DNA from: an uncultured Planctomycetota bacterium
GTDB taxonomy: Bacteria > Planctomycetota > SKW154 > DAOVDS01
Length of the DNA: 64,000 nucleotides
Assembly (NCBI GenBank): GCA_964641955.1
Contig: CAZXNM010000006.1
Location: forward strand, 74,556-138,555
Direction: 5' to 3'
The notes beneath the pieces are model-generated. The model searched no databases. It had not been told where the DNA came from and was given only the letters and a program-made list of their open reading frames with translations. Numbering within the stretch: the first letter of the stretch is position 1; every line of letters begins with the position of its first letter. Of this stretch, positions 41,248 through 58,452 are shown one piece after another. The translations under genes were made by a program, and so were the position numbers.

Positions 41248-41318
41248 CATCATATGGCATCAAGTGCAAGCTGGGTATCTTGGTGCGTTGCGGGCGCCGC
41301 AGAGAAGGGCAGGACAAG

Positions 41319-41936
41319 TTGAAAAACCTCACCAAGAAGCAGCGGCAGGTCTTCGATTTCATCAGATCCCAGATTGTCAGTACCAACAGGCCGCCCACAA
41401 TCCGCGAGATAGGCATGGAATTCAACATGAGTTCCACCGGGTCTGTCCGGGATGTTTTGCGTGCACTGGTCAAGAAAGGCTTCATCCAGAAGGATGCGCA
41501 CGTCTCCCGCGGCATACGCATCAAGCGCGGGCCGGGGCCTTTGAGCGGGGAGATAATCGAAGTCCCCGTAGTCGGCAAAATCGCCGCCGGCTCTCACATA
41601 AGCGCATACGAGAACGTCGGGGAATCCCTTAAAATTGACAAGAACATGGTGCCCGAGGGCGACGTCTTCGTCGTGAGAGTCAAGGGCAAGTCGATGATAG
41701 AGGCCGGCATAGACAACGCCGATTACGCCTTTATCCGCAGGCAGTCCACGTGCCGCCCCGGACAGATAATAGCCGTTCTGCTCGATGACGAAGTGACGCT
41801 CAAGGAATTCACGCGCATGGGTGAAAAGATCACACTGCGCCCCAGGAATAAAAGATTTAAGACTCTGGTAATGGATCCCAAGAAGTTCAGGAAAGCCATC
41901 CTCGGGGTGCTCGTCGGGATGTACCGCCGGTTCTGA
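41319..41936 (+). CDS. lexA: LexA repressor (HTH + S24 peptidase domain)
   Basis: TTG start giving '(M)KNLTKKQRQVFDFIRSQI' (LexA-typical N-terminus). Cleavage-site region 'VVGKIAAGSHISAYE', catalytic 'VKGKSMIEAGI' (Ser) and 'FTRMGEKITLRPRNKRF' (Lys). Confidence 0.8.
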   Translation: MKNLTKKQRQVFDFIRSQIVSTNRPPTIREIGMEFNMSSTGSVRDVLRALVKKGFIQKDAHVSRGIRIKRGPGPLSGEIIEVPVVGKIAAGSHISAYENVGESLKIDKNMVPEGDVFVVRVKGKSMIEAGIDNADYAFIRRQSTCRPGQIIAVLLDDEVTLKEFTRMGEKITLRPRNKRFKTLVMDPKKFRKAILGVLVGMYRRF

Positions 41937-43411: not shown

Positions 43412-44773
43412 ATGCTGAAATCGAAAGGGGCCGGTTTGGAAATCAACGTTGACATGCATTCGCACTCCGGCTATGCCGGCGGGGTCGGGGATATAGCACT
43501 CGGCGATATCGCCGTCAGCATGAAGAAGAAGGGCATCCACATCTTCGGCACCGGCGACTGCCTCCACCCCGGATGGAACGCGAAGCTGCAGGAAAGCCTC
43601 GAAGAGCGCGAAAACGGCCTTTTCGCGCTGCGCGGGACAAACGAAAACCCCGACGCCAGGTTCCTGCTGCAGACTGAAATCATAATCACAGCCGCCACGG
43701 CAGTCACGCCCGGCAGGAAGAACGTCCACTGCGTCTTCCTCTTTCCTTCATTCGAGGCCTGCGAAAGCGCCGTGGAGCTCCTCGAAAGCTGGGGAGTCAA
43801 GAACACTATCGGCCGGCCGTTCCTGAAATGCGAAGGACCCGACGATGTGGCGGCGAAGGTCGCGAAACTGCTTGACCTCAACCCCGGCATTGAGATGATA
43901 CCCGCCCACGTAATGACGCCGCAGGGCGTTTTCGGCTCGGCCAATCCGGTGAACCGGCTCTCCGACTTCTTCGGCGAAGCGGTCGAGCGAATCAACGCGG
44001 TCGAGACAGGCCTTTCGGCAGATCCGGTCGTGCTCGACCTTATCCCCGAGCTTGACGAGATTGCGCTCGTGTCCTGTTCCGACTGCCATTCCGCCGCCAG
44101 CAACCGCCTTGGACGCGAATTCACGGCTTTCAAGGTCGAGGATTTCTCCTACCCGGCGCTGCTTGAGGCTATCAAGTTCCGCAAAGTAGCATGGACAGCC
44201 GAGTTCAACCCAGGCGAAGGAAAATACTTTCTCAGCGGCCACCGCGCCGGCAAGCAGGGCCACGACGACGGCTACTGCGTCTACTCGCCGGACAAGACGC
44301 CGGAGGATGGGCGCTGCCCCATCTGCGGCAAGGCGATTACGATAGGCGTGCTGGAGCGCGCGTTCCAGATTTCGAAGGCGCAAGGTGCCGACCGCGAACT
44401 GAAAAAGGAATCCAAACGTCGCTTTGTGCACATGGTGCCACTCTCGGAAGTCGTCGCTTACAGCCTCGGCGTCGCCAATCCCAACTCGAAGAAGGTTGCC
44501 CAGCTCTACGAGAAGGTCGTGGCTGCCTTCGGGACCGAGATAGAACTCTGGAAGGTCGAGCCGCACACTGTCCGCGAATTGCTCGAAGGCGTTGTGCCGC
44601 AGGATGTTACGGACACCATTGTCGAGATAAAGAGTGACAATTTCACGTTCGAGCCGCTGGGATTCGACGGGTCTTACGGCAAGCTGGTGGTGGGCCGCAC
44701 CTCGCCCTGGTTCGGCGTCTCGACCGTCAAAATGCCCCAACCGCCTACTAAGGAACAACACTCCTTCTTTTAG
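43412..44773 (+). CDS. PHP-domain (polymerase/histidinol phosphatase) protein with inserted Cys4 zinc finger; endonuclease Q-like architecture
   Basis: N-terminal 'INVDMHSHSGYAGG' (PHP motif I, DxHxHS). Later 'VSCSDCHS' and 'GRCPICGKAI' give CxxC...CxxC. Size 453 aa matches EndoQ-type proteins. Assignment to EndoQ is inference. Confidence 0.5.
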   Translation: MLKSKGAGLEINVDMHSHSGYAGGVGDIALGDIAVSMKKKGIHIFGTGDCLHPGWNAKLQESLEERENGLFALRGTNENPDARFLLQTEIIITAATAVTPGRKNVHCVFLFPSFEACESAVELLESWGVKNTIGRPFLKCEGPDDVAAKVAKLLDLNPGIEMIPAHVMTPQGVFGSANPVNRLSDFFGEAVERINAVETGLSADPVVLDLIPELDEIALVSCSDCHSAASNRLGREFTAFKVEDFSYPALLEAIKFRKVAWTAEFNPGEGKYFLSGHRAGKQGHDDGYCVYSPDKTPEDGRCPICGKAITIGVLERAFQISKAQGADRELKKESKRRFVHMVPLSEVVAYSLGVANPNSKKVAQLYEKVVAAFGTEIELWKVEPHTVRELLEGVVPQDVTDTIVEIKSDNFTFEPLGFDGSYGKLVVGRTSPWFGVSTVKMPQPPTKEQHSFF

Positions 44774-44792
44774 CAGCTTACCTAGAGTCCTG

Positions 44793-47700
44793 TCAATTAT
44801 CCTTTGCTCTCTGCCATAGAAAGGGATTGAAGGATTTCAACTCGCCCTGCTCTATAAGTCTGAGAAATCTTGGAAGGTCTATGTATTCATCAATTCTGGT
44901 CACTAAGTCTGGTCCATAATCTGAAATAGTCTCAAGTAGTTGCTGTTTCACGTCGTCTGGCGACAGCGTAGCATTATGCACTGCGGCACTCAGGAGAATA
45001 GAGAACTCAGCAAAGCGTAAGATCTGCTCTTCTCTCGAACTTCCTTCCTCTAAACGTCCAACCCACGACATCAAGTAAGCAGAGAGTTGCGTGTTCGGTA
45101 CAACATAGACCTCGTCACGCACTACAACTACTGATTCTCCAGACAAACCATCAATCTTGACGTTTTTTCTGGGCACAAAAATATCAGTAATGGACCTAGT
45201 AATGCCGCTGCCAAGATAACCCCTTCGTTCGAAAATGTCATCCATGAGTTCGCGCTTGAAAAGAGACTTAATTTCCACCCAACGCGGCGACTCACTCACT
45301 AATTCCCATTTTAGGTCGGCACGCCTTTGACTCTTATAGACATTAATCTGGGCAACCTCTTTCCCTTTGAGGGCCGACCAGTAGAATCTCTTGCTGTTTG
45401 TATTCCAGCATACTACGGGAGCACGAGGAAGCTCTTTGATATCATGACCAAGCGCTGTTATGAGATGTGAAAGAGAGACTGGCCCTCGGACCTCTCGGAG
45501 AATTCTCTCAGCGTGCTCAAAAAGAGCACAACACGTAGTCCAGCATTCTTTAAATGCTCGCACATCGGCAACTGATAACACTCGCCTTTCACTTCCCTGC
45601 TCAACTAGTAGTACGGGAATAGAAAACAAGGACTCATAGAATAACTTATCATCTTGTGATTGAGCATGACCACGGCCTCTATACCCAAGAAGTGGATTAA
45701 TGAGGAAGACTGCCTCTTCCGCGGCCCAAGTCAAAGGTAGATCTCTCTCATTGTAAATTGCCTCCACTTCCGAACTAACGTGGTCACTAAATATAGAGTA
45801 TATTACTTCCAGCATTGTTTGGCGTTCTGGAGTCTCTTCTAGCCCTGAGCGCACAACATTTGTTCGTGGAGCCGATGGACCTTTGAGGTTGCATATAGCA
45901 ACTATTGACTTTCCGTTGAACCCAGGCGTATCAAATTCTATTCTTACGCCTTCAATGCAAACACCCAGGCTTACAGCATTTGATCTCTCGCGACTGACTC
46001 TCTCAAAGTCTAAGAAGCTCCACTCTTTGAAAACATCGGACCATCTGAGTGCGTAGGCCAATGTTACGCAATCCTTTCGCACTTCTTTAATTTTGACACT
46101 GTCTTCGTCCGATATGCCAAGGTCATTCAAAACCTGCCGAAGAGCCTCCTTGGGAGAAGAAAACCCTATCGTGACAGGCGTCTGTTGGTCAACTATCAGC
46201 GTTACTTCACACCCCGGCACAACAACCCATTTTCTAAGAGCTTCAGCGATGTCTGGTATCTTCGCACTTGGCCTGATGTGGAGTCTCACGGATGTCCCAT
46301 GAGGAAGTAGGCTCCTCATATCAGAGTCCGATGTTTTGTCAAGGTGTCGGAGAAGGTACTTTCCATGAACGGAACGAAGAGCCAATGAGATACCCTTCTG
46401 CTCTTCTTCGACGAAGGTTGCTATTTCTACTTTGTCCGCAACCATGAAAGTAGTTAGGATCCCAATCCCAAACCGACTGATAGGAGAAAACTCCGGAAAA
46501 TCCTCTTTAAATCTCTTTTCTTGATACCTTGAGGCACCTATCTTCAACAAATGGTTCTCGACTATCTCTCGAGACATACCAGTTCCATTGTCCGAGACTG
46601 TCAATACGCGGTCTTCACCATTCCAGTGTATTTCCACTTTTCCCGAACTCTCATCACGGTGGCCACGTTTTTCGATAAGATTTTGGAGTCTTATGGCATC
46701 CAATGAATTTTGAACGAGTTCGCGAAGTACGACAGAGGTATCATTGTATAGGGTGTGCCCAGTCAACAGGTCGAGTATCTTGGCTTGGTCCAGAGTGAAC
46801 TCAAACTGGTTTGGCAGAAAACCCTCTGCTTCAACATGGCTGTCGTCAATAAAGCGCCACGGGAATTCATGCCCCATTCCTGTCCTGCGTTTGGTCTGTT
46901 CACACCAAGTGTGACACCGAGAGATTTCGCTCCTCACATATGTTAGGTAGGTTGTTAGGCCAAAGAACCCCGTCTCATCCGTGAAATAAGCTTGTACTTC
47001 AATAGTGTCCCGGTGTGCCGCTTGGTCAGGTATACCTTCCTTGTTGAAACCGATCTTACTTCTAACGGTAGTTACTCCTTTTTGCCTGGCCCATTCCTCT
47101 TGGCTCTTGGGATCAGACAAACTGATGAGACGAAACTCCGTAGAAGGCGTCCTATCGGAAGTCATGTGCAGAAGGTCGGCAGCCCTAAGGAGAACTGCGA
47201 CATACTGGAGATTCACCGTCTCCTGATTGCTGTCTCCGTAAGCTCGGGATGGCATATACTTCTCAATGTTATCCAAATCATTCAGGTGGTGACTCTCACA
47301 TAACATGCCCAGATCTCGCCGGAATTGTTGCGGCAAAGGATTGAGGAGGTCATCAACCACAGAGATAGCATCGTGCGCGACACCTAGAAAGTCTGACTGA
47401 GCCCCAAGTACCCAGGCCTTGGCTCGAGTGGGATGAGAGCGACGTACAAACTCTTGATAGAGAAATCGTTCTCTGTCCTCATCCTTCATTCTGTCCAAGC
47501 TTGCCTTATAGTCTATCGCCTCATCTCCGTTGTGAAGCACTTCTTCCCTGAATTGTATGTAACCGATGCAGCTATTTCGTGACTCGTATTCTTTCGTAGT
47601 TACTAACATTCCAACATCATGAAAGTAGATAGCCAATACAGTTATAAGCCAATCTGCTGGACTGATTATCTCTTTAGTTCTGTCCGGCACTAACCATTCG

Positions 47701-47906
47701 AGAATGCCCAGCATCTTGTCTACATGCGAGATGTCGTGTCGTGTGTACTCATCGAAGACCCCGCCTCTTCCAATCAATCCTAGAATCTGTGCCAGTTGAT
47801 TCTTAATATGCCTTAGCTTAATACCGCTGAAGGCTGGCAACTCTTCAGCTGCTAATGCACGTTTCTCTGCTTCGGTAAGATTTGGAGCAACCATGTCTGT
47901 CTCCAT
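44793..47906 (-). CDS. Large (1037 aa) HD-domain + GHKL (Hsp90/MORC-like, HATPase_c_3-type) ATPase fusion protein with ~450-aa uncharacterised C-terminal region
   Basis: HD motifs in order: 'YTRHDISHVDKM' (H), 'AIYFHDVGML' (HD), 'LCESHHLNDL' (H), 'LLRAADLLHMT' (H, D). GHKL motifs: N-box 'LRELVQNSLDAI', G1 'VSDNGTGMSREIV', G2 'ISRFGIGILTTFMVADKVEIATF' (compare Hsp90 'GQFGVGFYSAFLVADKV'). ATG at 47906. Confidence 0.7.
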   Translation of the reverse strand: METDMVAPNLTEAEKRALAAEELPAFSGIKLRHIKNQLAQILGLIGRGGVFDEYTRHDISHVDKMLGILEWLVPDRTKEIISPADWLITVLAIYFHDVGMLVTTKEYESRNSCIGYIQFREEVLHNGDEAIDYKASLDRMKDEDRERFLYQEFVRRSHPTRAKAWVLGAQSDFLGVAHDAISVVDDLLNPLPQQFRRDLGMLCESHHLNDLDNIEKYMPSRAYGDSNQETVNLQYVAVLLRAADLLHMTSDRTPSTEFRLISLSDPKSQEEWARQKGVTTVRSKIGFNKEGIPDQAAHRDTIEVQAYFTDETGFFGLTTYLTYVRSEISRCHTWCEQTKRRTGMGHEFPWRFIDDSHVEAEGFLPNQFEFTLDQAKILDLLTGHTLYNDTSVVLRELVQNSLDAIRLQNLIEKRGHRDESSGKVEIHWNGEDRVLTVSDNGTGMSREIVENHLLKIGASRYQEKRFKEDFPEFSPISRFGIGILTTFMVADKVEIATFVEEEQKGISLALRSVHGKYLLRHLDKTSDSDMRSLLPHGTSVRLHIRPSAKIPDIAEALRKWVVVPGCEVTLIVDQQTPVTIGFSSPKEALRQVLNDLGISDEDSVKIKEVRKDCVTLAYALRWSDVFKEWSFLDFERVSRERSNAVSLGVCIEGVRIEFDTPGFNGKSIVAICNLKGPSAPRTNVVRSGLEETPERQTMLEVIYSIFSDHVSSEVEAIYNERDLPLTWAAEEAVFLINPLLGYRGRGHAQSQDDKLFYESLFSIPVLLVEQGSERRVLSVADVRAFKECWTTCCALFEHAERILREVRGPVSLSHLITALGHDIKELPRAPVVCWNTNSKRFYWSALKGKEVAQINVYKSQRRADLKWELVSESPRWVEIKSLFKRELMDDIFERRGYLGSGITRSITDIFVPRKNVKIDGLSGESVVVVRDEVYVVPNTQLSAYLMSWVGRLEEGSSREEQILRFAEFSILLSAAVHNATLSPDDVKQQLLETISDYGPDLVTRIDEYIDLPRFLRLIEQGELKSFNPFLWQRAKDN

Positions 47907-48009
47907 GATATATGTTCACTTACAACTCAGAAAATACCTTCTGACCATTCAGTTGTCAAGAATAACCACTCGCAGTTGCTCACTTGTATCTGTGGACTAA
48001 CATTCCCGC

Positions 48010-48030
48010 AGTGCAAGTAGTAGTTGCACT
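48010..48030. promoter_or_regulatory. Inverted repeat AGTGCAA-N7-TTGCACT ~100 nt upstream of the island gene start
   Basis: Perfect 7-bp arms read from the sequence (48010-48016 / 48024-48030), in the AT-rich 5' leader 47907-48100. Confidence 0.3.
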
Positions 48031-48102
48031 TCCTTGATATCATCTCAAATAGAAATTTGTGTCCAAGTGCTCAAATTCATTAAGTAGCACTCACCCGCCC
48101 CG

Positions 48103-48699
48103 CTATCTCATCTGCGGGATAAGGGTGCGCAGCTTTTTGGCGTGCTCGGTGGTTATGTAGCGGTGGTCTATGTCCGACTCTATCCTGTCGTGGAACCGCC
48201 TGAGAGAGTCACGGATGTAGTCGAGGTCGCGACCCAAACGGGAGGCGGTCATGCTGCCTGTCAGCCTGAGCGGAGCTTTCCCTGCCCTGCCGCGCAGCGG
48301 CACGCTGCCGTTAAAATCGAAGCTTATTTCGTACGTCGCGCGAGTTTCCGCGCTTTCCGAGATATCGACCCAGCCTTTCGAGTATTCGTAGAAGACGCAC
48401 GCCTCGTCCGAATATGACAGGTAGTAGGCCCTTTCTACGGGAAGCCTTGCGCCCGGGGCAGCATTGGCCGGCAGGTCGAAGGCGACCACGCGATATCCAT
48501 CGTCCGGCACGCTCACTGTAATAACGCGCATCTTGCCGTCAACAGTCTTGACGTGGGCGGTGGCGTTGGAAACTATCTTCCGTGTCACCACTTCACCGGG
48601 GAGCGAAAGCTCGCGCAGGCTTACTGAAAGGCTGCACCCGCTTCCGGCAAGCAGGCAGAAAAGTATGACAAGCGCCATTACAGACCGTATATTTCTCAT
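48103..48699 (-). CDS. Hypothetical lipoprotein (lipobox 'LLAGSGCS')
   Basis: Start chosen at 'MRNIRSVMALVILFCLLAGSGCS' (ATG at 48699). The tracked ORF extends to 48780 but that region is more likely leader. Confidence 0.5.
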   Translation of the reverse strand: MRNIRSVMALVILFCLLAGSGCSLSVSLRELSLPGEVVTRKIVSNATAHVKTVDGKMRVITVSVPDDGYRVVAFDLPANAAPGARLPVERAYYLSYSDEACVFYEYSKGWVDISESAETRATYEISFDFNGSVPLRGRAGKAPLRLTGSMTASRLGRDLDYIRDSLRRFHDRIESDIDHRYITTEHAKKLRTLIPQMR

Positions 48700-49162
48700 A
48701 TCAGACATCCTTTGACTGTTCCGAGAAAAAGCGCTACCGCGCATCATAATCGGAATCCGGCTATACGTCAACCGAATCACTCAAATCAATAAAATAAGCC
48801 CGGCCGGGATGATTTCGCAGACACAGGTGCTTGCGGGCTCCTGCCTGGAAGGCCCGGTCGGGCTGTGCGATTCTTCTTTTTCTCCTCTTTTGTACCCCAC
48901 AAACGGGAACCGGGGTCCGGCAAGCGCCGGCTACTTTCAAATTACCACATGTATACATGTTTGTCAAGAGAATTGTGCCGTAAACGCACTTGAGGTCTTG
49001 CAGTACATTACACGCGGGAAGCCGCGAAACGAATATGCTCAATGCCTGACTGCAATCTCGTGTAATTATATGGGCACATACTCACGTCAACCGAAAAAGG
49101 CGGAAGGTGTTGAACCGTGGAGGGTGCGGCGGTATCATTCCAGATATTAATGGGAGGACAAT

Positions 49163-50045: not shown

Positions 50046-51533
50046 ATGGCGAAGAGGTTTTTCGTAGCGCTGGTTCTCGTGCTCGTCGGTGTCAGCCTTG
50101 CGGTCGCGGACTGGAAGCCGCCGCGCGCCAAGCCGCAGAGGAGAAAGGGAGGCGAGGCGTTCCCGCCGCTGCCGCTGCCCGCAACCCCGCAGCGCAGGAC
50201 GGAGAAGAAGCGCGAGCCTTCACCGCCGACGCTCATATGCCGCGTGATTCACGGCAAGGAGCCCAGGCGAATCAAGCACGAGGGCGAAACCTACACTTTC
50301 TGGGACTGGAATACGAACCCCGGCGCCGAGAAGAACCTGCTTCGCAAGCTCGCCTCGCAGCTCGGGCAGCCCTACAATAGGGTCGCGGCGCCCCTCTCGA
50401 AGCTCTCCGGCGACCCCGCCGAGGTGCCCATCCTGTTCATCTCCGGCCACGGTGACTTCACGTTTTCGGCCAAGGAACTCGCTTTCCTGAAGAAATACGC
50501 CGAATCCGGCGGATACCTGTGGCTCGAAGCATGCTGCGGCGTGGACAAGGCTTACAAGGAATACCACGCCATGCTCAAGGCCATGTGGCCGGACAGGAAA
50601 CTGTACGTTCTGCCCGAAGACCACCCGCTTTACCACAGCTATTACAACATAAGCAGCGTCAAGTACACCAAGGAAGCGACCGACCGGACGGACGGCAAGC
50701 CCTACATCGAGGGGCTCGACATAGGCTGCAGGACGGCCGTGCTGCTGTTCAAGTACGGGATAAGCAACGGCTGGGACCAGTTCCACGACCCGGGCGCAAA
50801 GGATTACGAGTATGCGGACTCGTTCAAGCTCGGAGTGAACATGGTCGCCTACAGCCTCGCGTATCACAACCTGGGCAAGTTCTTAAGCCGCGCGAAGCAG
50901 TACCACGAGCAGGCGAAGGAGGACAAGGGCGATTTCGTCTTCGGGCAGGTCGTCTACGAAGGCAACTGGGACCCGAACCCATCGTCCGCGATAAACCTGC
51001 TCACGGCGGTTGACGCGAAGTCGTCGGTCCGCGTGAAATTCAAGCGCGAAAAGATAGACTTGGACAAGACCGACCTGTTCGAGTGCCCGTTCCTCTACGT
51101 GACGGGACACAACGATTTCAAGCTGACGGACAAGCAGGTTACGAAGCTGCGCAACTACCTCAATGGCGGTGGCTTCCTGCTGGCCGACTCGTGCTGCGGG
51201 CGCGCCTCGTTCACGGCGGCTTTCGTAAGGGAGATAAAAAAGGTCCTGCCGGGCGCCGAACTCAAGCACCTGTCCGCCGAGCACGCGGTCTATTCCGCCC
51301 GGTTCAAGATAGCCTCGGTCAGCTATACAGAGTTCACGAAGAAAGCAGTCAAGGACCTGCCGCAGCTTCCGCTTTATGGCATCGAGGTGGCGGGCTCGAC
51401 GCGCGTGATATTCTGCCCTTATGCGCTCGGCAACGGCTGGGAGAAGGAAGACCACCCGTTCACGAAGGCTATCGAGGCCGAGGACGCCCTGAAGCTGGGC
51501 GTCAATATTGTGGTTTATTCGCAGACTCACTGA
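50046..51533 (+). CDS. Secreted protein with two ThuA/class-I-amidotransferase-like repeats (DUF4159-like), of the type found beside MoxR/vWA 'Bat' clusters
   Basis: Signal peptide 'MAKRFFVALVLVLVGVSLAVA'. Repeats 'PILFISGHGDFTFSAKELAFLKKYAESGGYLWLEACCG' and 'PFLYVTGHNDFKLTDKQVTKLRNYLNGGGFLLADSCCG'. AGGAGGGG RBS. Confidence 0.55.
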   Translation: MAKRFFVALVLVLVGVSLAVADWKPPRAKPQRRKGGEAFPPLPLPATPQRRTEKKREPSPPTLICRVIHGKEPRRIKHEGETYTFWDWNTNPGAEKNLLRKLASQLGQPYNRVAAPLSKLSGDPAEVPILFISGHGDFTFSAKELAFLKKYAESGGYLWLEACCGVDKAYKEYHAMLKAMWPDRKLYVLPEDHPLYHSYYNISSVKYTKEATDRTDGKPYIEGLDIGCRTAVLLFKYGISNGWDQFHDPGAKDYEYADSFKLGVNMVAYSLAYHNLGKFLSRAKQYHEQAKEDKGDFVFGQVVYEGNWDPNPSSAINLLTAVDAKSSVRVKFKREKIDLDKTDLFECPFLYVTGHNDFKLTDKQVTKLRNYLNGGGFLLADSCCGRASFTAAFVREIKKVLPGAELKHLSAEHAVYSARFKIASVSYTEFTKKAVKDLPQLPLYGIEVAGSTRVIFCPYALGNGWEKEDHPFTKAIEAEDALKLGVNIVVYSQTH

Positions 51534-51657: not shown

Positions 51658-53067
<1,410 letters not shown>

Positions 53068-53079
53068 CCGGGGGCGCAA

Positions 53080-53982
53080 GTGGCCGCTGTCCGACCCGGA
53101 AGACGTTATCTGGACCCGAAGGCGCTCTCGCGCCTGGCGAATATCAAGCTGATTGCCAGGACCGTCGTCGAAGGGTTCATATCGGGGTTGCACCAGAGCC
53201 CCTATCATGGATTCTCGGTCGAGTTTTCGGAGTACCGCGAGTACGTCCCGGGGGACGACCTTAAGCACTTCGACTGGCGCGTCCTGGCGCGCTGCGACAA
53301 GCACTACATAAAGCAATACCAGGAAGAGACCAACCTGCGGGCGACAATTCTAATTGACTGCTCGCGCTCGATGGCCTACTCCTCGAACGGGATATCGAAG
53401 TTTACCTACGGGTGCTATCTCGCGGCCTCGCTGGCGTATCTGATGGTGCGCCAGCAGGACTCGGTCGGCATGGTCATTTTCGACGACAAGATACGCCACC
53501 GGATACCGCCGAAATGCTCGCCGTCGCACCTGCGCGACATGCTGGTCGTCCTGGAGAACACCGAGCCGTCGAGCAGGACCGGCATCGCCGGCACGCTGCA
53601 CGCGATGGCCGAGGCGGTTAAGAAGCGCGGGCTCGTCATTATCATCTCCGACCTTCTCGAAGAGCAGTCGGAAGTACTGCGCGGCATCAAGCACTTCAGG
53701 CACAACCGGCACGAAGTAATCATCTTCCACGTGCTCGACGAGGCGGAGCTGTCGTTCCCGTTTTCCGGGCTGACGACCTTCCGCGACATGGAAAGTGGCG
53801 AGAAGCTCATGATGGAGCCGCAGTTTTTCCGGGAGGAATACTCTAAACAGCTCGAAGCGTTCATCAGGCAGTACAGGCGGGAGTGCGCGGAAGGATTCGT
53901 TGACTACCTGCTCGCGGACACGTCTCGCCCATTCGACTTGATGCTTGCGAGATACCTTGCGAAACGCGCGAGGCTTGGATAG
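53080..53982 (+). CDS. DUF58 protein (MoxR-associated vWA-like)
   Basis: GTG start. 'SPYHGFSVEFSEYREYVPGDDLKHFDWRVLARCDKHYIKQYQEE...ILIDCSRSMAY' is the conserved DUF58 core. Confidence 0.75.
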   Translation: MAAVRPGRRYLDPKALSRLANIKLIARTVVEGFISGLHQSPYHGFSVEFSEYREYVPGDDLKHFDWRVLARCDKHYIKQYQEETNLRATILIDCSRSMAYSSNGISKFTYGCYLAASLAYLMVRQQDSVGMVIFDDKIRHRIPPKCSPSHLRDMLVVLENTEPSSRTGIAGTLHAMAEAVKKRGLVIIISDLLEEQSEVLRGIKHFRHNRHEVIIFHVLDEAELSFPFSGLTTFRDMESGEKLMMEPQFFREEYSKQLEAFIRQYRRECAEGFVDYLLADTSRPFDLMLARYLAKRARLG

Positions 53983-53984
53983 AA

Positions 53985-56216
53985 ATGTTCGGATTTTCGC
54001 TGCTCAACGCTGCGTTCCTGCTGGGCCTGGCCGCCGCTGCCGTGCCCGTGATAATTCATCTTATCCAGAAACGCCATTCCCGCAGCGTGGATTTCCCCTC
54101 GCTCATGTTCCTGCGCCTCATAGACCTGCGCATGGCGAGCCGCCAGAAGCTGCGCGAGCTGCTGATTCTCGCGCTTCGCATCGCGGCGATTGCGCTTTTC
54201 GCATTTGCTCTGGCCAAGCCGATTCTGCGCACCCGGACAGCGAGCGCCGGAGCCAGGACCTCGACGACCGCAGCCATCATCGTGGACAACTCCTACTCGA
54301 TGAGCTACAAGGAGTCGGGAGTGACCGGCCTCGAACGGGCGAAGGAAAAGGCCCTCGCGGTGCTCGGGACGCTCGCGCCCGGCGACGATGCGGCCATTAT
54401 CCCCGTCGCGGGCTACGCCCCCGCGGATGCGCAGCTCAGCAAGGACCTGGCCGGGCTGGAGCGGCGCGTGAAGCTGCTCAAGGAGAACCCGACCGCCGGC
54501 TCGCTCGAAGGCGCGCTCAGCCTCGCGGTCAAGGCGCTGAAAAGCTCCACCGAGGTCAACAAGGAACTCTACATTATCAGCGACTACCAGCTTACGCTCT
54601 GGGAGCCCGTGCTCGAGGGAAGCTCCCTGCAGGAAGTGGACGCGAACGTCATCGTCGTTGATGTCGCGGCGGTCGAGCCGGTCAACATGGCGCTCACATC
54701 GGTAAAAGTAGGCCACAGGCGCGGCGAGGGTGGCGCGCTGGAAATCGAGACGGAGATCCGCAACTTCTCCGGCAGTGCCGCGAACGCCCGGGTCGCGCTC
54801 GTCCTCGACGGCAAGACCCGCAGCGAGAAGCCCGTAACGGTGCCCGCCGGCGGCAGCGCGTCAATCTCTTTCACGCGCAGCGCAGACGAGGGCAGGCTTC
54901 GTGGCCACGTCTTCCTGCAAACTGACGGGCTGGCAACGGATAACAAGCGTTTCTTCGCTTCCTCGGCAGGCGAGGCGGTCCCAGTCCTGGTCATAAACGG
55001 CGACCCTTCGGATATCTGGGACCTCGACGAGACGTACTACCTCACGGCCGCGCTGGCTCCCGCGCTCGCCGAGAATCTTGAAGAAGACGGCTCGGTTGGA
55101 GCTTCTTCACCGGTACGGCCTAAAGTGGTCTCCGAGGCAGGCCTTCGCGGCGAGAATCTCGACAACTACAGCGCCATTGTCCTCGCGAACGTGGGACAGC
55201 TCGATGATGTGCTTGTGGCCGACATTGACAAGTTCGTTCGCGGCGGCGGCGGCCTCGTCATGTTTGCCGGCGACCGTATGAGGCCCGAGACCTACAACAA
55301 GCTCATGGGCAGGAACTCGACGGCGCATCTGCTGCCCTGTGAACTCGTGGGAACCCGCGATTATCCCGATTCCGCCGCGGTTAGCCTGCCGGCAGGCGGG
55401 ATTGACTGGGAGCACGGCGTCTTCTCCGCGTTGAAAGCGGTTCGCGAGGAGGGCTTCGAGACCACGCGCTTCACTAAAATCATGATATGCGAGCGAGACA
55501 GGGAGGACAAGGCCGTTTCCGTGCTGGCAAGGTTCTCGAACGGCTTCCCCGCCCTGAGCGAACGAAAGACAGGTGCCGGTTCGGTGCTCCTGTTCGCGGC
55601 GTCATGCGACCGCGACTGGACCAACATGCCTCTGAGGCCCATATACCTGCCGCTCGTGCACGAGATGATTCGTTACATTTCCTCCAGGCAGCAGCGCCTC
55701 AGGAGCTACCTGGTCGGCGAGCCTGTAAAGTACACCTTCCCTCCGGCGGAAGAGAATATCGAGGTTTCCGTGACCGACCCCGCCGGGCGCGCTTATGAGG
55801 CGGCGGTCGAGCCGGCGGGCGGAGCAATCACCGCAACGTTCGCGGAGACGGTAATGCCGGGAATTTATAACGCCGCCATAAGAAGCTCTTCGGGAAAACA
55901 GGGCGAATACTTCGCCGTGAACCTGGATATCTCGGAGAGCAATCTCCTGCGCGTCCCGCCGGCCGAAGCGAGGGAGGCGCTCGGGAGCAACGTGCTCCAG
56001 CTTAGAAGCGGCGACGACCTCGCCTCCGCTATCTGGCGCATGAGGACGGGCGTAAAACTGTGGGATTACTTCTTCTACCTCGCGCTCCTAGCGCTGCTTG
56101 TCGAGGGCTGGCTGGCGAACCGGCTGGTCCCGCACACCGCCAAACCGGGCGAGCAGAGCGCGCGGGAGAAATTGCTGGCTAAAGAGACCGAAAAGGCGAC
56201 TGCGGTTCTGAGGTAA
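53985..56216 (+). CDS. BatA-like vWA-domain membrane protein with N-terminal double-TM domain and C-terminal TM anchor
   Basis: 'MFGFSLLNAAFLLGLAAAAVPVIIHLIQKRHSRSVDFPSLMFL' (aerotolerance-type N-terminal double-TM signature, PxIIHL). vWA MIDAS 'IIVDNSYSMSY'. C-terminal 'LWDYFFYLALLALLVEGWL'. Confidence 0.7.
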   Translation: MFGFSLLNAAFLLGLAAAAVPVIIHLIQKRHSRSVDFPSLMFLRLIDLRMASRQKLRELLILALRIAAIALFAFALAKPILRTRTASAGARTSTTAAIIVDNSYSMSYKESGVTGLERAKEKALAVLGTLAPGDDAAIIPVAGYAPADAQLSKDLAGLERRVKLLKENPTAGSLEGALSLAVKALKSSTEVNKELYIISDYQLTLWEPVLEGSSLQEVDANVIVVDVAAVEPVNMALTSVKVGHRRGEGGALEIETEIRNFSGSAANARVALVLDGKTRSEKPVTVPAGGSASISFTRSADEGRLRGHVFLQTDGLATDNKRFFASSAGEAVPVLVINGDPSDIWDLDETYYLTAALAPALAENLEEDGSVGASSPVRPKVVSEAGLRGENLDNYSAIVLANVGQLDDVLVADIDKFVRGGGGLVMFAGDRMRPETYNKLMGRNSTAHLLPCELVGTRDYPDSAAVSLPAGGIDWEHGVFSALKAVREEGFETTRFTKIMICERDREDKAVSVLARFSNGFPALSERKTGAGSVLLFAASCDRDWTNMPLRPIYLPLVHEMIRYISSRQQRLRSYLVGEPVKYTFPPAEENIEVSVTDPAGRAYEAAVEPAGGAITATFAETVMPGIYNAAIRSSSGKQGEYFAVNLDISESNLLRVPPAEAREALGSNVLQLRSGDDLASAIWRMRTGVKLWDYFFYLALLALLVEGWLANRLVPHTAKPGEQSAREKLLAKETEKATAVLR

Positions 56217-56220
56217 ATGC

Positions 56221-58452
56221 ATGGGACTCGAACTGGCAAGCGACTGGCACCCCGCCCTTGCGGTGCTTGCCATCCTGGGGCTGGCGGCCCTGGTCTATGC
56301 AGCCTACTTCCGAAACTTCCACGCGCTGCCGCGCAGGAAAGGCTGGATGCTTCTGGGCCTTCGAATCGGGGTTGTCATCTTCCTGTTTCTGTGCATTCTC
56401 AAGCCCGTCATCTCCTACCAGTCGATTGCGGGCGAGAAGACCAGGCTCGTGCTTCTCGTGGACAACTCCAGGTCCATGACGCTGCCCCTCAAGGATGCGA
56501 GGGGGCAGAGGAAGCGCATAGATGTCGCGCGCGACCTCGTCTACGGGTCGGACGGCGTCCTCGGGCCTCTCGGCAGGTATTTCGTCGTCCAGAATTTCTC
56601 CTTCGCCGGTTCCGCCGGCCAGTTGCCCTCGGACGGCACGGGCAAGATGCTCGACGCGCAGGGCGACTCCACTGCCATACTCAAGAGTCTGCGCGAGGCC
56701 GCGGCGAAGTCCGGCGCAACCGCGCCGGTCGCGGCTGTGCTCGTAAGCGATGGCGCGGATAATTCCGCAGCAGAGGCGAAGGGTCAGGAACTCGGCTTTC
56801 CCGTATTCGCCGTCGGCGTCGGGTCGAAACTTTCCGATGCGGGCGTGGCGGACCTCTCGGTCGGCGCACCCAAAGCGCCAGAACAGGCCTACAAAAACAC
56901 AACCGTCCAGGTCGAGGTCGAGGTCAGGGCATTCGGTCTCAAGAACAGGACTGCAATCCCGGTAACGCTGACGGGCCCGGAGGGAGAAATGGTCACCGCC
57001 TCCGAGGTCAGCCTGTCAGGCGAGAAGCGCAGCGACACCGTGACTCTCACTTTCAGGCCCGAGTCCGCCGGCGTGTTCGAATACGCCGTCTCCGTGATTG
57101 AGCTTGAAAAGGAACTTGTCAAGGTGAACAACAGGCAGTCCTTCAACCTGCACGTGCTCGACTCGAAGATGAGAGTGCTCCTGGTGGACAGGGCACGCTG
57201 GGAATACAAGTACCTCAAGATGGTGCTCGAACAGGACCCCAACATCAGCTTCACCGGCGCCGTCCTTACTCAGGAGAACCTGTTCACGCTGCAGGGCGTG
57301 GGGCGCGCGGAGCTTGTGGCGCGCGGGCTGCCGGCAGACGTGCAGGGCTACGAGAACTGGGACATCGTGATACTCGGCGACCTCAAGAGCGAGGCGTTCG
57401 CCGCGGACCAGCTCGAAGCCCTCAAAAAGTTCGTCGAAGGCGGCGGCGGATTCTGCGCCCTCGGCGGCCGGGACGCGCTTGGCGCGGGCGGCTACGGCGG
57501 CACCGAGCTGGAGGAAATCCTTCCCGTATCGCTGGGTGGCCGCAGCTCCGGGCAGGAGCCGGACAGCTTCGTCATGCAGGTTACCGAAGAAGGCAAGCGA
57601 CATCCCGTAATGCAGGGGACAGCCGACTATTTCGAAGGAGCCGGCGATGCCGCATGCGAGCTTTACGGGGCGAACGTGACGGGCAGGCGAAAGCCCGGTG
57701 CCATGGTCCTCGCGGAGCACCCGGAAGTGAGCATCGAGGGCGAACCGCTCGTCATCGTCGCAGTCCAGCGTTACGGCGAAGGCAAGACCATGATTATGAC
57801 AGGGAGCACGACGTACAAGTGGCACCTGCGCCACAGGGGCCTCGGCCTCGATTCGCCGTACGTCCGGTTCTGGGGGCAGGCGGTCAGGTGGCTCGCGGGC
57901 GAAAAGAGCAGCACGGGGCCGCTCTCCCTGTGGACCGACAGGCGCAATTATCTGCCCGGCCAGACCGTTCACATAAAGGCGCGGGTCGATACGGAGCTTG
58001 TGAGGCAGCCGCTGCCCGAGACCCTGCCGGTGCAAGTCGAGACCGAGAAGATGCTCGAAACGGAGCATGTCAGAATCCAGCCCGACAAGAGGACTTACGA
58101 GGGCGAATTCATCCCGAAAGCCGGCGGGCGCTACAGGATTATGACCTCCGTTACGGACCGCGAGGACAAGACCGTCCAGGAATCCGTCGAGGTCGTGGTG
58201 GGCAGGAGCAACCTCGAATTCGAGAACGCGGACCTCAACGACGAGTTCCTGAGGCGCATCGCCGCGGAGAGCGGCGGCAAGTATTACAGCATGCACGAGG
58301 CGTCGAAGTTGGTCAGGGATATCGAGGCCATCGCCAGCGCGAGTTCCGAGGAGCGGGAAGTCTCCATCTGGGATACGCCGCTGTTTTTCCTGCTGTTTCT
58401 CGGCCTGGCCACCGCCGAGTGGATTTTAAGAAAACGAAATATGCTTGTTTAG
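56221..58452 (+). CDS. Second vWA-domain membrane protein (BatB-like position)
   Basis: N-terminal TM pair 'ALAVLAILGLAALVYAAYF' / 'MLLGLRIGVVIFLFLCILKPV'. MIDAS 'LLVDNSRSMTL'. C-terminal TM 'PLFFLLFLGLATAEWIL'. Confidence 0.65.
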   Translation: MGLELASDWHPALAVLAILGLAALVYAAYFRNFHALPRRKGWMLLGLRIGVVIFLFLCILKPVISYQSIAGEKTRLVLLVDNSRSMTLPLKDARGQRKRIDVARDLVYGSDGVLGPLGRYFVVQNFSFAGSAGQLPSDGTGKMLDAQGDSTAILKSLREAAAKSGATAPVAAVLVSDGADNSAAEAKGQELGFPVFAVGVGSKLSDAGVADLSVGAPKAPEQAYKNTTVQVEVEVRAFGLKNRTAIPVTLTGPEGEMVTASEVSLSGEKRSDTVTLTFRPESAGVFEYAVSVIELEKELVKVNNRQSFNLHVLDSKMRVLLVDRARWEYKYLKMVLEQDPNISFTGAVLTQENLFTLQGVGRAELVARGLPADVQGYENWDIVILGDLKSEAFAADQLEALKKFVEGGGGFCALGGRDALGAGGYGGTELEEILPVSLGGRSSGQEPDSFVMQVTEEGKRHPVMQGTADYFEGAGDAACELYGANVTGRRKPGAMVLAEHPEVSIEGEPLVIVAVQRYGEGKTMIMTGSTTYKWHLRHRGLGLDSPYVRFWGQAVRWLAGEKSSTGPLSLWTDRRNYLPGQTVHIKARVDTELVRQPLPETLPVQVETEKMLETEHVRIQPDKRTYEGEFIPKAGGRYRIMTSVTDREDKTVQESVEVVVGRSNLEFENADLNDEFLRRIAAESGGKYYSMHEASKLVRDIEAIASASSEEREVSIWDTPLFFLLFLGLATAEWILRKRNMLV

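What the first reader, a model, noticed from the sequence alone, without database searches (positions are those of the whole stretch)
44780..48100. Sharply low-GC island carrying a single giant HD-nuclease-like + Hsp90/MORC-type GHKL ATPase gene: candidate horizontally acquired single-gene defence/stress system
Seen in sequence: base composition drops abruptly (AT-rich codons, poly-A/T runs) exactly over one 1037-aa minus-strand ORF (44793..47906) and its ~200-bp leader, between GC-rich flanking genes. The island gene overlaps no other credible ORF. The protein combines a complete HD phosphohydrolase motif set (H...HD...H...H...D) with a Bergerat-fold GHKL ATPase whose G2 box is strikingly Hsp90/MORC-like, plus ~450 aa with no motif I recognise. 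Established knowledge: HD domains are common nuclease/phosphodiesterase effectors, and MORC/Hsp90-like GHKL ATPases occur in prokaryotic restriction/defence contexts. Inference: NTPase-plus-effector fusions on compositionally foreign DNA are the typical signature of anti-phage systems. No integrase, tRNA or transposase is present, so the insertion mechanism is not evident. I do not recognise this exact architecture as a named defence system.
Basis: partly seen in the sequence, partly recalled or inferred. Interest (0 to 1): 0.85.

Follow-up and report, generated by a model that had tools for sequence, protein, structure and literature searches.

The report
Mobile HD-phosphohydrolase–Hsp90-like ATPase immune gene
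A single foreign-looking gene inserted between two housekeeping genes encodes an Hsp90-like ATPase fused to an HD "conflict effector" phosphohydrolase. It belongs to a widespread, horizontally moving family that was predicted by computation, but apparently never tested, to be an anti-phage system.

Summary
One minus-strand ORF (44793..47906, 1037 aa; the likely true start is M5 at 47894) and its leader form the most compositionally deviant stretch of the window: GC 0.46 against 0.59, GC3 0.46 against 0.65-0.86.

The protein has an N-terminal HD-CE domain (Pfam PF24391, E 2e-51) and a GHKL ATPase whose N-domain is Hsp90-type at sequence level. A transducer-like middle domain and an unassigned C-terminal ~250 aa follow.

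It belongs to a full-length family found in 309 of 185,579 species genomes across about ten phyla. Family genes are nearly always AT-richer than their host, a few sit inside prophages, and the gene is absent from the same site in a close relative. In about a third of loci a small membrane "effector" gene (SLATT_2 or an unrelated 2-3TM protein) lies next to it; the window copy has none. All HD and ATPase catalytic residues are invariant.

The most likely function is an ATP-driven sensor/switch that controls a nucleotide- or nucleic-acid-degrading effector in abortive-infection immunity.

The architecture is not new. As I recall, Nicastro et al. 2023 defined HD-CE and described HSP90-coupled effector systems. 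It is absent from PADLOC v2, and I found no experimental study. I rate it a new member of a known, predicted kind, of moderate interest.

The parts
44793..47906 (-). Whole ORF of the HD-CE + Hsp90-like ATPase protein (1037 aa from the first ATG; probably 1033 aa from M5 at 47894)
   Evidence: ORF list and translation. The 100% identical database protein P0001 is 1033 aa. More than 1,241 full-length homologues at 42-52% identity. AlphaFold2 model pLDDT 88.9, pTM 0.84.
46872..47906 (-). N-terminal HD-CE phosphohydrolase module, aa 1-345. The Pfam HD-CE core is aa 51-285 (47052..47756). Putative metal ligands are H57, H61, H96-D97, H158, H206 and D244.
46167..46871 (-). Hsp90-type GHKL (Bergerat-fold) ATPase N-domain, aa ~346-580. 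N box E396/N400/D403, G1 box D439xGxG443, G2 box G480xG482.
   Evidence: HATPase_c_3, E 5e-11. NCBIfam HSP90/HtpG partial matches, E 3e-26 and 1e-24. PDB phmmer: HtpG N-domain 1e-14. Family profile against PDB: Hsp90 N-domains E 4e-20. hhalign against HtpG: probability 99.1 over aa 365-567. All boxes are invariant.
45537..46166 (-). Middle, transducer-like domain, aa ~581-790. It contains the invariant loop TNVxRSGLE with R686 (codon 45849..45851), a candidate ATP-gamma-phosphate sensor.
44796..45536 (-). C-terminal region, aa ~791-1037. It is alpha/beta followed by a helical bundle and ends in the conserved F-(D/N)-x-x-x-W-x-R motif. It may be a dimerisation or sensor domain.
47907..48102 (-). 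AT-rich 5' leader of the island. It carries a sigma-70-like promoter match (TTGACA-17-TATTTT) at 47959..47931.
   Evidence: Sequence. Promoter scan gives 10 of 12 matches, but the number of sites in the region is no higher than in shuffles. No Rfam family matches. Promoter function is inferred, not shown.

Best explanation
The island is a horizontally acquired, self-contained immune (biological-conflict) gene of the HD-CE + Hsp90-like ATPase class.

Proposed mechanism:
1. The protein is made constitutively from its own promoter. By analogy with GHKL clamps it forms a dimer.
2. The Hsp90-type ATPase with its middle domain acts as an ATP-driven switch or sensor. It responds to an infection cue, most plausibly a phage protein 'client' or a nucleic-acid/protein complex.
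3. N-terminal closure and ATP hydrolysis reposition or unmask the N-terminally fused HD-CE domains.
4. The HD-CE binuclear-metal phosphohydrolase then degrades free nucleotides (NTP/dNTP or a related phosphoester) or, less likely, nucleic acid. This stops phage replication at the cost of host growth (abortive infection).
5. In about a third of family members a small membrane protein encoded next to the gene adds or replaces a membrane-damaging output. The window copy works without one.

Shown: foreign composition; absence from a relative's syntenic site; domain identities; strict conservation of both active sites; sporadic, mobile distribution; adjacency to membrane effector genes.

Inferred: dimerisation, the trigger, the coupling between ATPase and HD domain, the substrate, and the phage phenotype itself.
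For: Acquisition:
- Composition is foreign.
- Relative L083 (endonuclease Q 77% identical) has endonuclease Q, two CBM96 lipoproteins, then DapB-DUF4159-MoxR, with no such gene.
- L081 and L082 carry yet other genes at that flank.

Mobility and conflict signature of the family:
- It occurs in 309 of 185,579 species genomes, in Actinomycetota, Pseudomonadota, Bacteroidota, Bacillota, Acidobacteriota, Planctomycetota, Verrucomicrobiota, Cyanobacteria and one Thorarchaeota MAG. The best matches to the window protein are about 46% identical in four different phyla.
- Gene GC is more than 3 points below the flanks in 76 of 80 loci, with a mean of -13 points (Wilcoxon p 2e-14).
- No neighbour is conserved except an adjacent small membrane-protein gene in about 29 of 80 loci. 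In 24 of them it lies directly downstream on the same strand and often overlaps the stop codon. One partner type is SLATT_2 (E to 4e-33). The other is an unrelated ~150-aa 2-3TM family.
- Serine recombinases, integrases and transposases flank some copies.
- Six IMG/VR viral contigs carry relatives. One lies between the terminase/portal genes and a replication gene, another between helicase/loader and anti-repressor genes.
- Distant HD+GHKL relatives lie on plasmids near Shedu and 'beta family/sce7726' genes.

Both enzymatic centres are under purifying selection.

The HD-CE name means 'conflict effector'. Its sister family Calcineurin-CE has been shown experimentally to deplete dNTPs in an abortive-infection system (PMC12871103).

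A GHKL-ATPase-plus-hydrolase single-gene defence has a tested precedent in VcSduA, where both the ATPase and the nuclease are required (PMC12137116).

The HD fold is nearest to nucleotide and polyphosphate phosphohydrolases.
Against: - No phage phenotype exists for any member that I could find.
- No PADLOC v2 model covers the protein. It gives only weak partial GHKL/HD matches.
- The immediate neighbourhoods are mostly housekeeping genes. Only a few defence genes (ZorD, DpdE, HamB, PD-T4-6) occur among the 140 nearest neighbours, so the enrichment is weak and has no control.
- The window copy has no mobility gene, tRNA or repeat to explain its insertion.
- Substrate and trigger are unknown.
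Confidence: 0.55

Rival explanations
1. It is an ATP-dependent nuclease of the restriction or Shedu type. The GHKL + transducer module clamps DNA, as GyrB/ParE, MutL and MORC do. The HD domain is a DNase or RNase, as in Cas3, that cuts invading nucleic acid directly. This is essentially the first reader's reading.
For: - Partial matches to GHKL-containing restriction enzymes: NCBIfam BbrUII/HgiDII E 2e-15 and PADLOC REase_II E 7e-5.
- VcSduA is a tested GHKL + nuclease defence.
- HD domains with the same ligand set include nucleases.
Against: - The matches to restriction enzymes cover only the ATPase domain and lie far below the family cut-off (56.5 against 550 bits).
- No methyltransferase is adjacent in the window.
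- Sequence places the ATPase with Hsp90, not with DNA-clamping GHL enzymes.
- The curated family name marks it as one of the 'conflict effector' families, which were proposed (as I recall) as nucleotide-targeting.
Confidence: 0.25
2. The HD domain is a regulator rather than the killing effector. It would hydrolyse a signalling nucleotide, such as a cyclic or polyphosphorylated nucleotide, and the real effector would be the membrane protein encoded next to it. Solo copies such as this one would then be decayed or dependent on a partner encoded elsewhere.
For: - SLATT and Saf-2TM-type membrane proteins are described by Pfam as effectors of SMODS/SLOG/SAVED nucleotide-signalling systems (family descriptions).
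- The nearest catalytic folds are cyclic-nucleotide phosphodiesterases and HD-GYP.
- About 29 of 80 loci carry such a partner.
Against: - Two thirds of loci, including this one, have no partner, yet they keep every catalytic residue and full length.
- Members with and without partners are equally similar to the window protein (39% and 38%), so solo copies are not a decaying subset.
- No nucleotide cyclase ranks among the commonest neighbour families.
- The two partner families are unrelated. That fits swappable accessory outputs better than an obligatory effector.
Confidence: 0.1
3. It is a stress-response or housekeeping paralogue of the HtpG chaperone that happens to be AT-rich, with an HD domain acting on alarmones or polyphosphate. 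It would have no role in conflict with mobile elements.
For: - Sources annotate many members as 'molecular chaperone HtpG'.
- The N-domain is truly Hsp90-like.
- The top fold match of the HD domain is GppA/PPX.
- Most neighbours are housekeeping genes.
- LexA and endonuclease Q lie nearby in the window.
Against: - It is present in only about 0.17% of species genomes, scattered over many phyla.
- It is absent at the same site in a relative.
- It is systematically AT-richer than its hosts.
- Some copies are inside prophages.
- Some copies are coupled to membrane effector genes.
- It scores far below the HtpG equivalog cut-offs (86.6 against 371 bits and 92.2 against 455 bits).
Confidence: 0.07

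Closest known systems
HSP90-coupled HD-CE 'conflict effector' systems predicted by Nicastro, Burroughs, Iyer & Aravind 2023 (Nucleic Acids Res 51:11479)
   Same: The effector domain family is the same (Pfam HD-CE), and it is fused to an Hsp90-related ATPase. That 'CE' means conflict effector, and that the reference exists, are confirmed in PMC12871103. That the paper describes HSP90- and HSP70-related modules coupled to these effectors as analogues of STAND NTPases is my recollection of its abstract. The paper is not in the held library.
   Different: I can show no difference, and this looks like a plain member. The class is a computational prediction, and I found no experimental test. I could not check whether the paper describes the two kinds of membrane partner or the consistent GC offset.
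VcSduA, Shedu type I-D of Vibrio cholerae (PMC12137116)
   Same: It is a single-gene system. A GHKL ATPase plus a clamp-like middle domain is fused to a hydrolytic effector, and both the ATPase and the effector are needed for anti-phage activity. It is the best tested analogue of the proposed logic.
   Different: The effector there is a C-terminal PD-(D/E)xK nuclease (DUF4263). Here it is an N-terminal HD-CE domain, and no DUF4263 is detected. The ATPase here is Hsp90-type by sequence. The two are not homologous over the full length.
Hsp90/HtpG/TRAP1 chaperones
   Different: An extra 345-aa HD module is present. The scores lie far below the HtpG equivalog cut-offs. The middle and C-terminal parts have no detectable sequence similarity to Hsp90. 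The distribution is sporadic and mobile rather than universal.
PUA-Calcineurin-CE-HAD system of E. coli ECOR28 (PMC12871103)
   Same: It is a sister 'conflict effector' phosphoesterase class. It has been shown to collapse dNTP pools and cause abortive infection once a fused sensor domain is triggered. It is a model for what an HD-CE effector may do.
   Different: It has a different catalytic fold (calcineurin-like against HD), a different sensor (a PUA-like domain binding m6-dAMP against an Hsp90-like ATPase), and it needs a HAD partner and filament assembly.
Other GHKL-containing defence proteins: Tiamat TmtA, MzaB, BbrUII/HgiDII-type restriction enzymes
   Same: They share a GHKL ATPase domain in a defence protein (PADLOC TmtA E 4e-4, MzaB E 0.03, REase_II E 7e-5; NCBIfam BbrUII E 2e-15).
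   Different: The matches are confined to the ATPase core and lie far below the family cut-offs. The remaining domains are unrelated, and no partner genes of those systems are present.
HD-domain dNTPases in defence (dGTPase/SAMHD1-like)
   Same: They have an HD phosphohydrolase as the immune effector, possibly acting on nucleotides.

Membership tests
Pfam HD-CE (PF24391) | Whole-protein score above the curated gathering cut-off | tested here: met
   175.6 bits against a cut-off of 27, E 2e-51, aa 51-285 matching profile positions 1-224 of 263.
HD phosphohydrolase superfamily | Metal-ligand motif H...HD...D, with additional His residues for a binuclear site | tested here: met
GHKL (Bergerat-fold) ATPases | N box (ExxxNxxD), G1 box (DxGxG) and G2 box (GxxGxG-like) | tested here: met
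   E396, N400, D403, D439, G441, G443, G480 and G482 are invariant in 80 of 80 members. HATPase_c_3 scores 43.3 bits against a cut-off of 25.
Hsp90 family (HtpG orthologue) | Score above the NCBIfam equivalog cut-off over the full length | tested here: not met
   PRK05218 HtpG scores 86.6 bits against 371. PRK14083 scores 92.2 bits against 455. Only the N-domain aligns.
Hsp90 family (broad sense) | Hsp90-type N-domain sequence signature | tested here: met
   All top PDB sequence matches are Hsp90/HtpG/GRP94/TRAP1 N-domains (E 1e-14 for the single sequence, 4e-20 for the profile). hhalign against HtpG gives probability 99.1.
Hsp90 family (broad sense) | Middle domain with a catalytic-loop arginine, and a C-terminal dimerisation domain | tested here: inconclusive
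MORC / MutL-type GHKL | Sequence affinity to MutL/MORC ATPase domains | tested here: not met
Named defence systems in PADLOC-DB v2.0 | A model matching the protein over most of its length | tested here: not met
   The best match is E 7e-5 over about 130 aa of the ATPase. RT_UG24 matches the HD part at E 1e-3.
Shedu | DUF4263 PD-(D/E)xK nuclease domain | tested here: not met
   No such Pfam match was found at E <= 1.
Type II restriction-modification (BbrUII/HgiDII type) | Full-length match to the enzyme family and an adjacent methyltransferase | tested here: not met
   56.5 bits against a cut-off of 550. The neighbours are endonuclease Q, a lipoprotein-like ORF, DapB and LexA, with no methyltransferase.
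Anti-phage defence system (functional class) | Protection against phage on expression | not testable with these tools
   Only indirect genomic evidence is available.
Anti-phage defence system (functional class) | Enrichment next to known defence genes | tested here: inconclusive
   Of 140 nearest neighbours in 37 loci, a handful match ZorD, DpdE, HamB, PD-T4-6 and PDC-S07. Three match integrases and three match transposases. Most are housekeeping genes, and no background control was run.

The most novel reading that the evidence does not exclude
The Hsp90-like module is a true chaperone-derived pattern-recognition receptor. It would bind phage proteins as 'clients', for example abundant, partly folded capsid or scaffold proteins. 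It would use its ATPase cycle to license an HD-CE nucleotide-depleting effector, making it a bacterial immune sensor built from a chaperone rather than from a STAND/NLR NTPase. In some lineages it would also gate interchangeable membrane-disrupting partners, one of which (the ~150-aa ERYKYILQQ/RWYETY family) is an undescribed effector family.
Probability: 0.25. Interest if true: 0.8.

Novelty: new member of a known kind. Interest (0 to 1): 0.5.

Why it matters
If the prediction holds, this family would be an experimentally untested class of single-gene bacterial immunity. In it an Hsp90-like ATPase, not a STAND/NLR, helicase or SMC protein, would serve as the sensor and switch, and a phosphohydrolase would starve the virus of nucleotides. 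That would connect chaperone biology with innate immunity in bacteria and add to the emerging nucleotide-depletion paradigm.

The window copy is a clean, partner-free, 3.1-kb test case with every catalytic residue intact, so it suits heterologous testing. The family-wide analysis also yields three testable by-products:
- the gene is consistently about 13 GC points below its host;
- two unrelated membrane partners occupy the same adjacent position;
- the 3' flank of the endonuclease Q gene is a variable insertion spot in this lineage.

Tried and rejected
- Literature: I searched for the fusion with 'HD-CE', 'PRTase-CE', GHKL + HD + phage defence, SLATT + Hsp90, HATPase_c + HD + anti-phage, and HSP90 + anti-phage. 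No paper on this family is held. The defining paper (Nicastro et al. 2023) could not be opened by PMC id, DOI or PubMed id. The eLife 2020 paper on conflict systems mentions neither an HD domain, GHKL nor Hsp90. DefensePredictor has nothing relevant.
- An exact look-up of P0001 found no contig on record. The nearest named endonuclease Q homologues are from Planctomycetota MAGs.
- The HD profile against PDB sequences gave no match, so fold comparison was needed.
- I looked for an insertion mechanism: direct or inverted repeats, tRNA genes and an Rfam element in the leader. Nothing was found.
- I considered and rejected the idea that the 225-aa upstream ORF (48103-48780) belongs to the island. 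Its composition is host-like (GC3 0.69). It does not co-occur with the family in 80 loci. It has no family match.
- I considered and rejected the 337-aa ORF downstream on the same strand (43748-44761) as a partner gene. It lies antisense within the well-supported endonuclease Q gene and has no family match.
- I tested whether the two membrane-partner families are related. They are not (hhalign probability 0.1%). The ~150-aa family has only sub-threshold Pfam matches (Saf_2TM E 9e-4 in one member, DUF2157 in four).
- L008's 1021-aa upstream neighbour is not a tandem paralogue. It is isoleucyl-tRNA synthetase.
- PLSDB plasmids and GenBank phages hold no full-length member.


Full report

Yes. 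The minus-strand ORF 44793..47906 (1037 aa) is present, and only a 103-aa antisense ORF overlaps it. The stretch 44775-48100 has GC 0.461 against 0.588 for the rest of the window. It is the lowest of all 3.3-kb windows and about 7 SD below windows elsewhere. GC3 is 0.456 against 0.65-0.86 in nine neighbouring genes. Codon-usage correlation with those genes is 0.35 against 0.58-0.93. The island is also the strongest tetranucleotide outlier of the window.

The edges are sharp. The convergent upstream-flank gene ends at 44773, 19 nt from the stop codon, and GC recovers near 48100. The identical database protein starts at M5 (1033 aa). A GGAG lies 6 nt before that ATG, so 47894 is the likelier start. 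A sigma-70-like TTGACA-17-TATTTT match sits at 47959..47931, but such matches are no more frequent here than in shuffled sequence. There is no tRNA in the window, no significant flanking repeat, and no Rfam element in the leader.

**2. What the protein is**

Pfam finds HD-CE (PF24391) at aa 51-285 (E 2e-51) and HATPase_c_3 at aa 391-522 (E 5e-11).

The ATPase domain is Hsp90-type by sequence:
- The best NCBIfam partial matches are 'HSP90 family protein' and HtpG (E 3e-26 and 1e-24). They lie far below the equivalog cut-offs, so the protein is not an HtpG orthologue.
- All top PDB sequence matches are Hsp90, HtpG, GRP94 or TRAP1 N-domains (1e-14 with the single sequence, 4e-20 with the family profile).
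- hhalign against an annotated HtpG gives probability 99.1 over aa 365-567.
- MutL models reach only E 0.005.

An AlphaFold2 model built on 107 homologues is confident (pLDDT 88.9, pTM 0.84).
- Foldseek's best PDB matches are full-length Hsp90s (E ~1e-13). TM-scores are 0.55-0.61 for N+middle fragments.

The region after the Bergerat fold (aa ~581-790) is therefore the transducer or middle domain common to Hsp90 and the GHL ATPases. Fold alone does not decide between them. The last ~250 aa are well modelled but have no confident match.

The invariant loop TNVxRSGLE with R686 resembles the Hsp90 catalytic loop (N-L-S-R-E). That is my reading of the motif, not a tested superposition.

**3. The family**

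More than 1,241 proteins in the 5.8-billion-sequence set have the same full-length architecture (about 1,000-1,060 aa) at 42-52% identity. Their sources call them 'ATP-binding protein', 'HD domain-containing protein' or 'HtpG'. A profile of the HD module finds 253 clusters (at 50% identity) with E <= 1e-30. The best 150 are all this architecture or fragments of it.

Among 185,579 species genomes, 309 carry a member. They are spread over Actinomycetota, Pseudomonadota, Bacteroidota, Bacillota, Acidobacteriota, Planctomycetota, Verrucomicrobiota, Cyanobacteria, Methylomirabilota and one Thorarchaeota MAG. The best genomic matches to the window protein, all about 46% identical, come from four different phyla.

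In 80 full-length members, the HD ligands (H57, H61, H96-D97, H158, H206, D244), the GHKL boxes (E396, N400, D403, D439, G441, G443, G480, G482) and R686 are conserved in 79-80 of 80. Both catalytic centres are therefore maintained by selection.

**4. Evidence that it is mobile and conflict-related**

(a) In 76 of 80 genomic loci the gene is more than 3 GC points below its flanks. The mean offset is -13 points, and the offset holds from 33%-GC Clostridia to 74%-GC Kitasatospora (r 0.84 with host GC; Wilcoxon p 2e-14). The window's 'island' look is thus a property of the whole family.

(b) The flanking 453-aa gene is endonuclease Q. A relative whose endonuclease Q is 77% identical (L083, GCA_964455955.1) keeps the order endonuclease Q ... 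DapB-DUF4159-MoxR/FHA. Between them it has two CBM96 lipoprotein genes instead of the island. Nucleotide homology to the window stops at 44737 and resumes at 49153. Its lipoproteins are unrelated to the window's 225-aa ORF. Two other relatives have yet other genes after endonuclease Q. The site is a variable spot, and the gene is absent from it in relatives.

(c) All-against-all clustering of ORFs in the 80 loci finds no conserved neighbour except a small membrane-protein gene. It is adjacent in about 29 loci. In 24 of them it lies directly downstream on the same strand, often overlapping the stop codon. One type is SLATT_2 ('SMODS and SLOG-associating 2TM effector', E down to 4e-33). The other is a ~150-aa 2-3TM family without a Pfam assignment. 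The two are unrelated (hhalign probability 0.1%). Unrelated proteins of the same kind filling the same slot is what one expects of interchangeable effectors. The window copy has no such partner.

(d) Serine recombinases lie next to the gene in four loci. Integrases and transposases occur among the nearest neighbours.

(e) Six IMG/VR viral contigs carry relatives. In L084 the gene sits between the terminase/portal genes and a replication-initiator gene. In L085 it sits between helicase/DnaD-loader genes and anti-repressor genes, like a prophage moron.

(f) More distant HD+GHKL relatives lie on plasmids beside a Shedu gene, 'beta family/sce7726' genes and IS elements.

Against this, most immediate neighbours are ordinary housekeeping genes. 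Only a few match known defence proteins. No full-length member was found on PLSDB plasmids or in GenBank phages.

**5. How it most likely works**

Shown:
- The protein carries an intact binuclear-type HD phosphohydrolase.
- That module is fused to an intact Hsp90-type ATPase with a transducer-like domain.
- The gene is mobile.

Inferred:
- The ATPase module dimerises and acts as an ATP-driven switch that senses an infection cue.
- Closure of the N-domains, to which the HD modules are directly attached, activates the HD domain.
- The HD domain then destroys nucleotides (or nucleic acid) and aborts the infection.

Two tested systems support the logic. VcSduA is a single-gene GHKL-ATPase + nuclease defence in which both activities are required (PMC12137116). 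The PUA-Calcineurin-CE-HAD system is one in which a sister 'conflict effector' phosphoesterase collapses dNTP pools once its fused sensor is triggered (PMC12871103).

I put about 0.55 on this overall picture. Within it, I am more confident about 'conflict gene' (~0.7) than about the substrate being nucleotides (~0.4).

Rivals:
- A direct ATP-dependent nuclease of the restriction or Shedu type (0.25).
- An HD domain that degrades a signalling nucleotide and regulates a membrane effector (0.1). This is weakened because two thirds of members lack a partner yet are fully conserved.
- A stress chaperone paralogue (0.07). This is contradicted by distribution, composition, prophage carriage and effector partners.

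**6. Comparison with what is known, and novelty**

'CE' stands for conflict effector. The Calcineurin-CE, HD-CE and PRTase-CE families stem from Nicastro, Burroughs, Iyer and Aravind 2023 (NAR 51:11479). The reference, and the meaning of 'CE' for Calcineurin-CE, are confirmed in PMC12871103. The paper itself is not held. That HD-CE and PRTase-CE were defined there, and that its abstract describes a class of systems using HSP90- and HSP70-related modules as analogues of STAND NTPases coupled to these nucleotide-targeting effectors, are both my recollection. If that recollection is right, the architecture found here is a member of that predicted class.

It is not covered by any PADLOC v2 model. 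I found no experimental work on it in ten literature searches.

I therefore rate it a new member of a known (predicted) kind, not a new architecture. The case remains moderately interesting (0.5), because an Hsp90-like immune sensor would be a notable mechanism and this partner-free copy is a convenient test object.

**7.

A horizontally acquired single-gene candidate defence system with HD and GHKL domains is right. 'MORC-type', 'HD-nuclease', 'unknown 450 aa' and the implied novelty need the corrections given above.

Noticed in passing
window 43412-44773 (+); antisense ORF 43748-44761 (-): The gene convergent with the island is an endonuclease Q (PHP-family Zn-ribbon phosphoesterase), 77-86% identical to metagenomic relatives. 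The 337-aa antisense ORF inside it has no family match and is probably spurious.
   Followed up: yes
window 44737-49153; L081:11281-12400, L082:10684-12400, L083:4329-6265: The 3' flank of endonuclease Q is a variable spot. Four related genomes carry four different gene contents there. The window has the HD-Hsp90 gene plus a 225-aa lipoprotein-like ORF. L083 has two CBM96 lipoproteins. L082 has a CarboxypepD_reg protein. L081 has a GIY-YIG protein and others.
   Followed up: partly
L016:9388-9882, L030:13097-13549, L038:13048-13545, L050:13054-13548 and 11 more (alignment A6): A ~150-aa 2-3TM protein family lies next to the HD-Hsp90 gene in 16 of 80 loci. Its motifs are ERYKYILQQ..LNE, W.DYR.EE and RWYETY. 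It has no Pfam family above cut-off and is unrelated to the SLATT_2 partners found in the same position elsewhere. It may be an undescribed membrane effector family.
   Followed up: partly
L001-L080 (family loci): Gene GC tracks host GC (r 0.84) but lies on average 13 points lower in 76 of 80 loci, from 33% to 74% GC hosts. This is a family-wide AT bias, not a peculiarity of this window.
   Followed up: yes
L001:3454-4569 (+): A dCTP-deaminase-like protein interrupted by an intein (DCD + Intein_splicing) lies 5.4 kb from the family member in a Pyrinomonadaceae MAG. It may be another nucleotide-depleting defence gene.
   Followed up: no
L092:5887-9286 (Aliarcobacter butzleri plasmid); L091:3719-8364 (Bacillus mycoides plasmid p507): These are distant (21-27% identity) HD+GHKL relatives on plasmids. 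In Aliarcobacter the HD and GHKL parts are two adjacent genes followed by a 193-aa gene, near a Shedu nuclease gene and IS21. In B. mycoides an 833-aa fused form lies beside 'beta family' and 'sce7726' genes and an IS3 transposase.
   Followed up: partly
window 51658-56500 (+): A MoxR-type AAA+ ATPase with an N-terminal FHA domain lies just after a DUF4159 gene (50046-51533). Homologues of DUF58, BatA and vWA genes follow, as seen in the syntenic L083. This is a Bat-like operon conserved with the relative and unrelated to the island.
   Followed up: no
window 41280-41936 (+): A LexA repressor gene lies 3 kb from the island, in a block (LarC, hydrolase, LexA, 451-aa peptidase-MA-like protein, endonuclease Q) that is syntenic in L081 and L082. 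I did not test whether the island's leader carries a LexA box.
   Followed up: no
window 47894-47906: The first ATG (47906) is probably not the start. Homologues and the database copy begin at M5 (47894), which is preceded by GGAG at the right spacing.
   Followed up: partly
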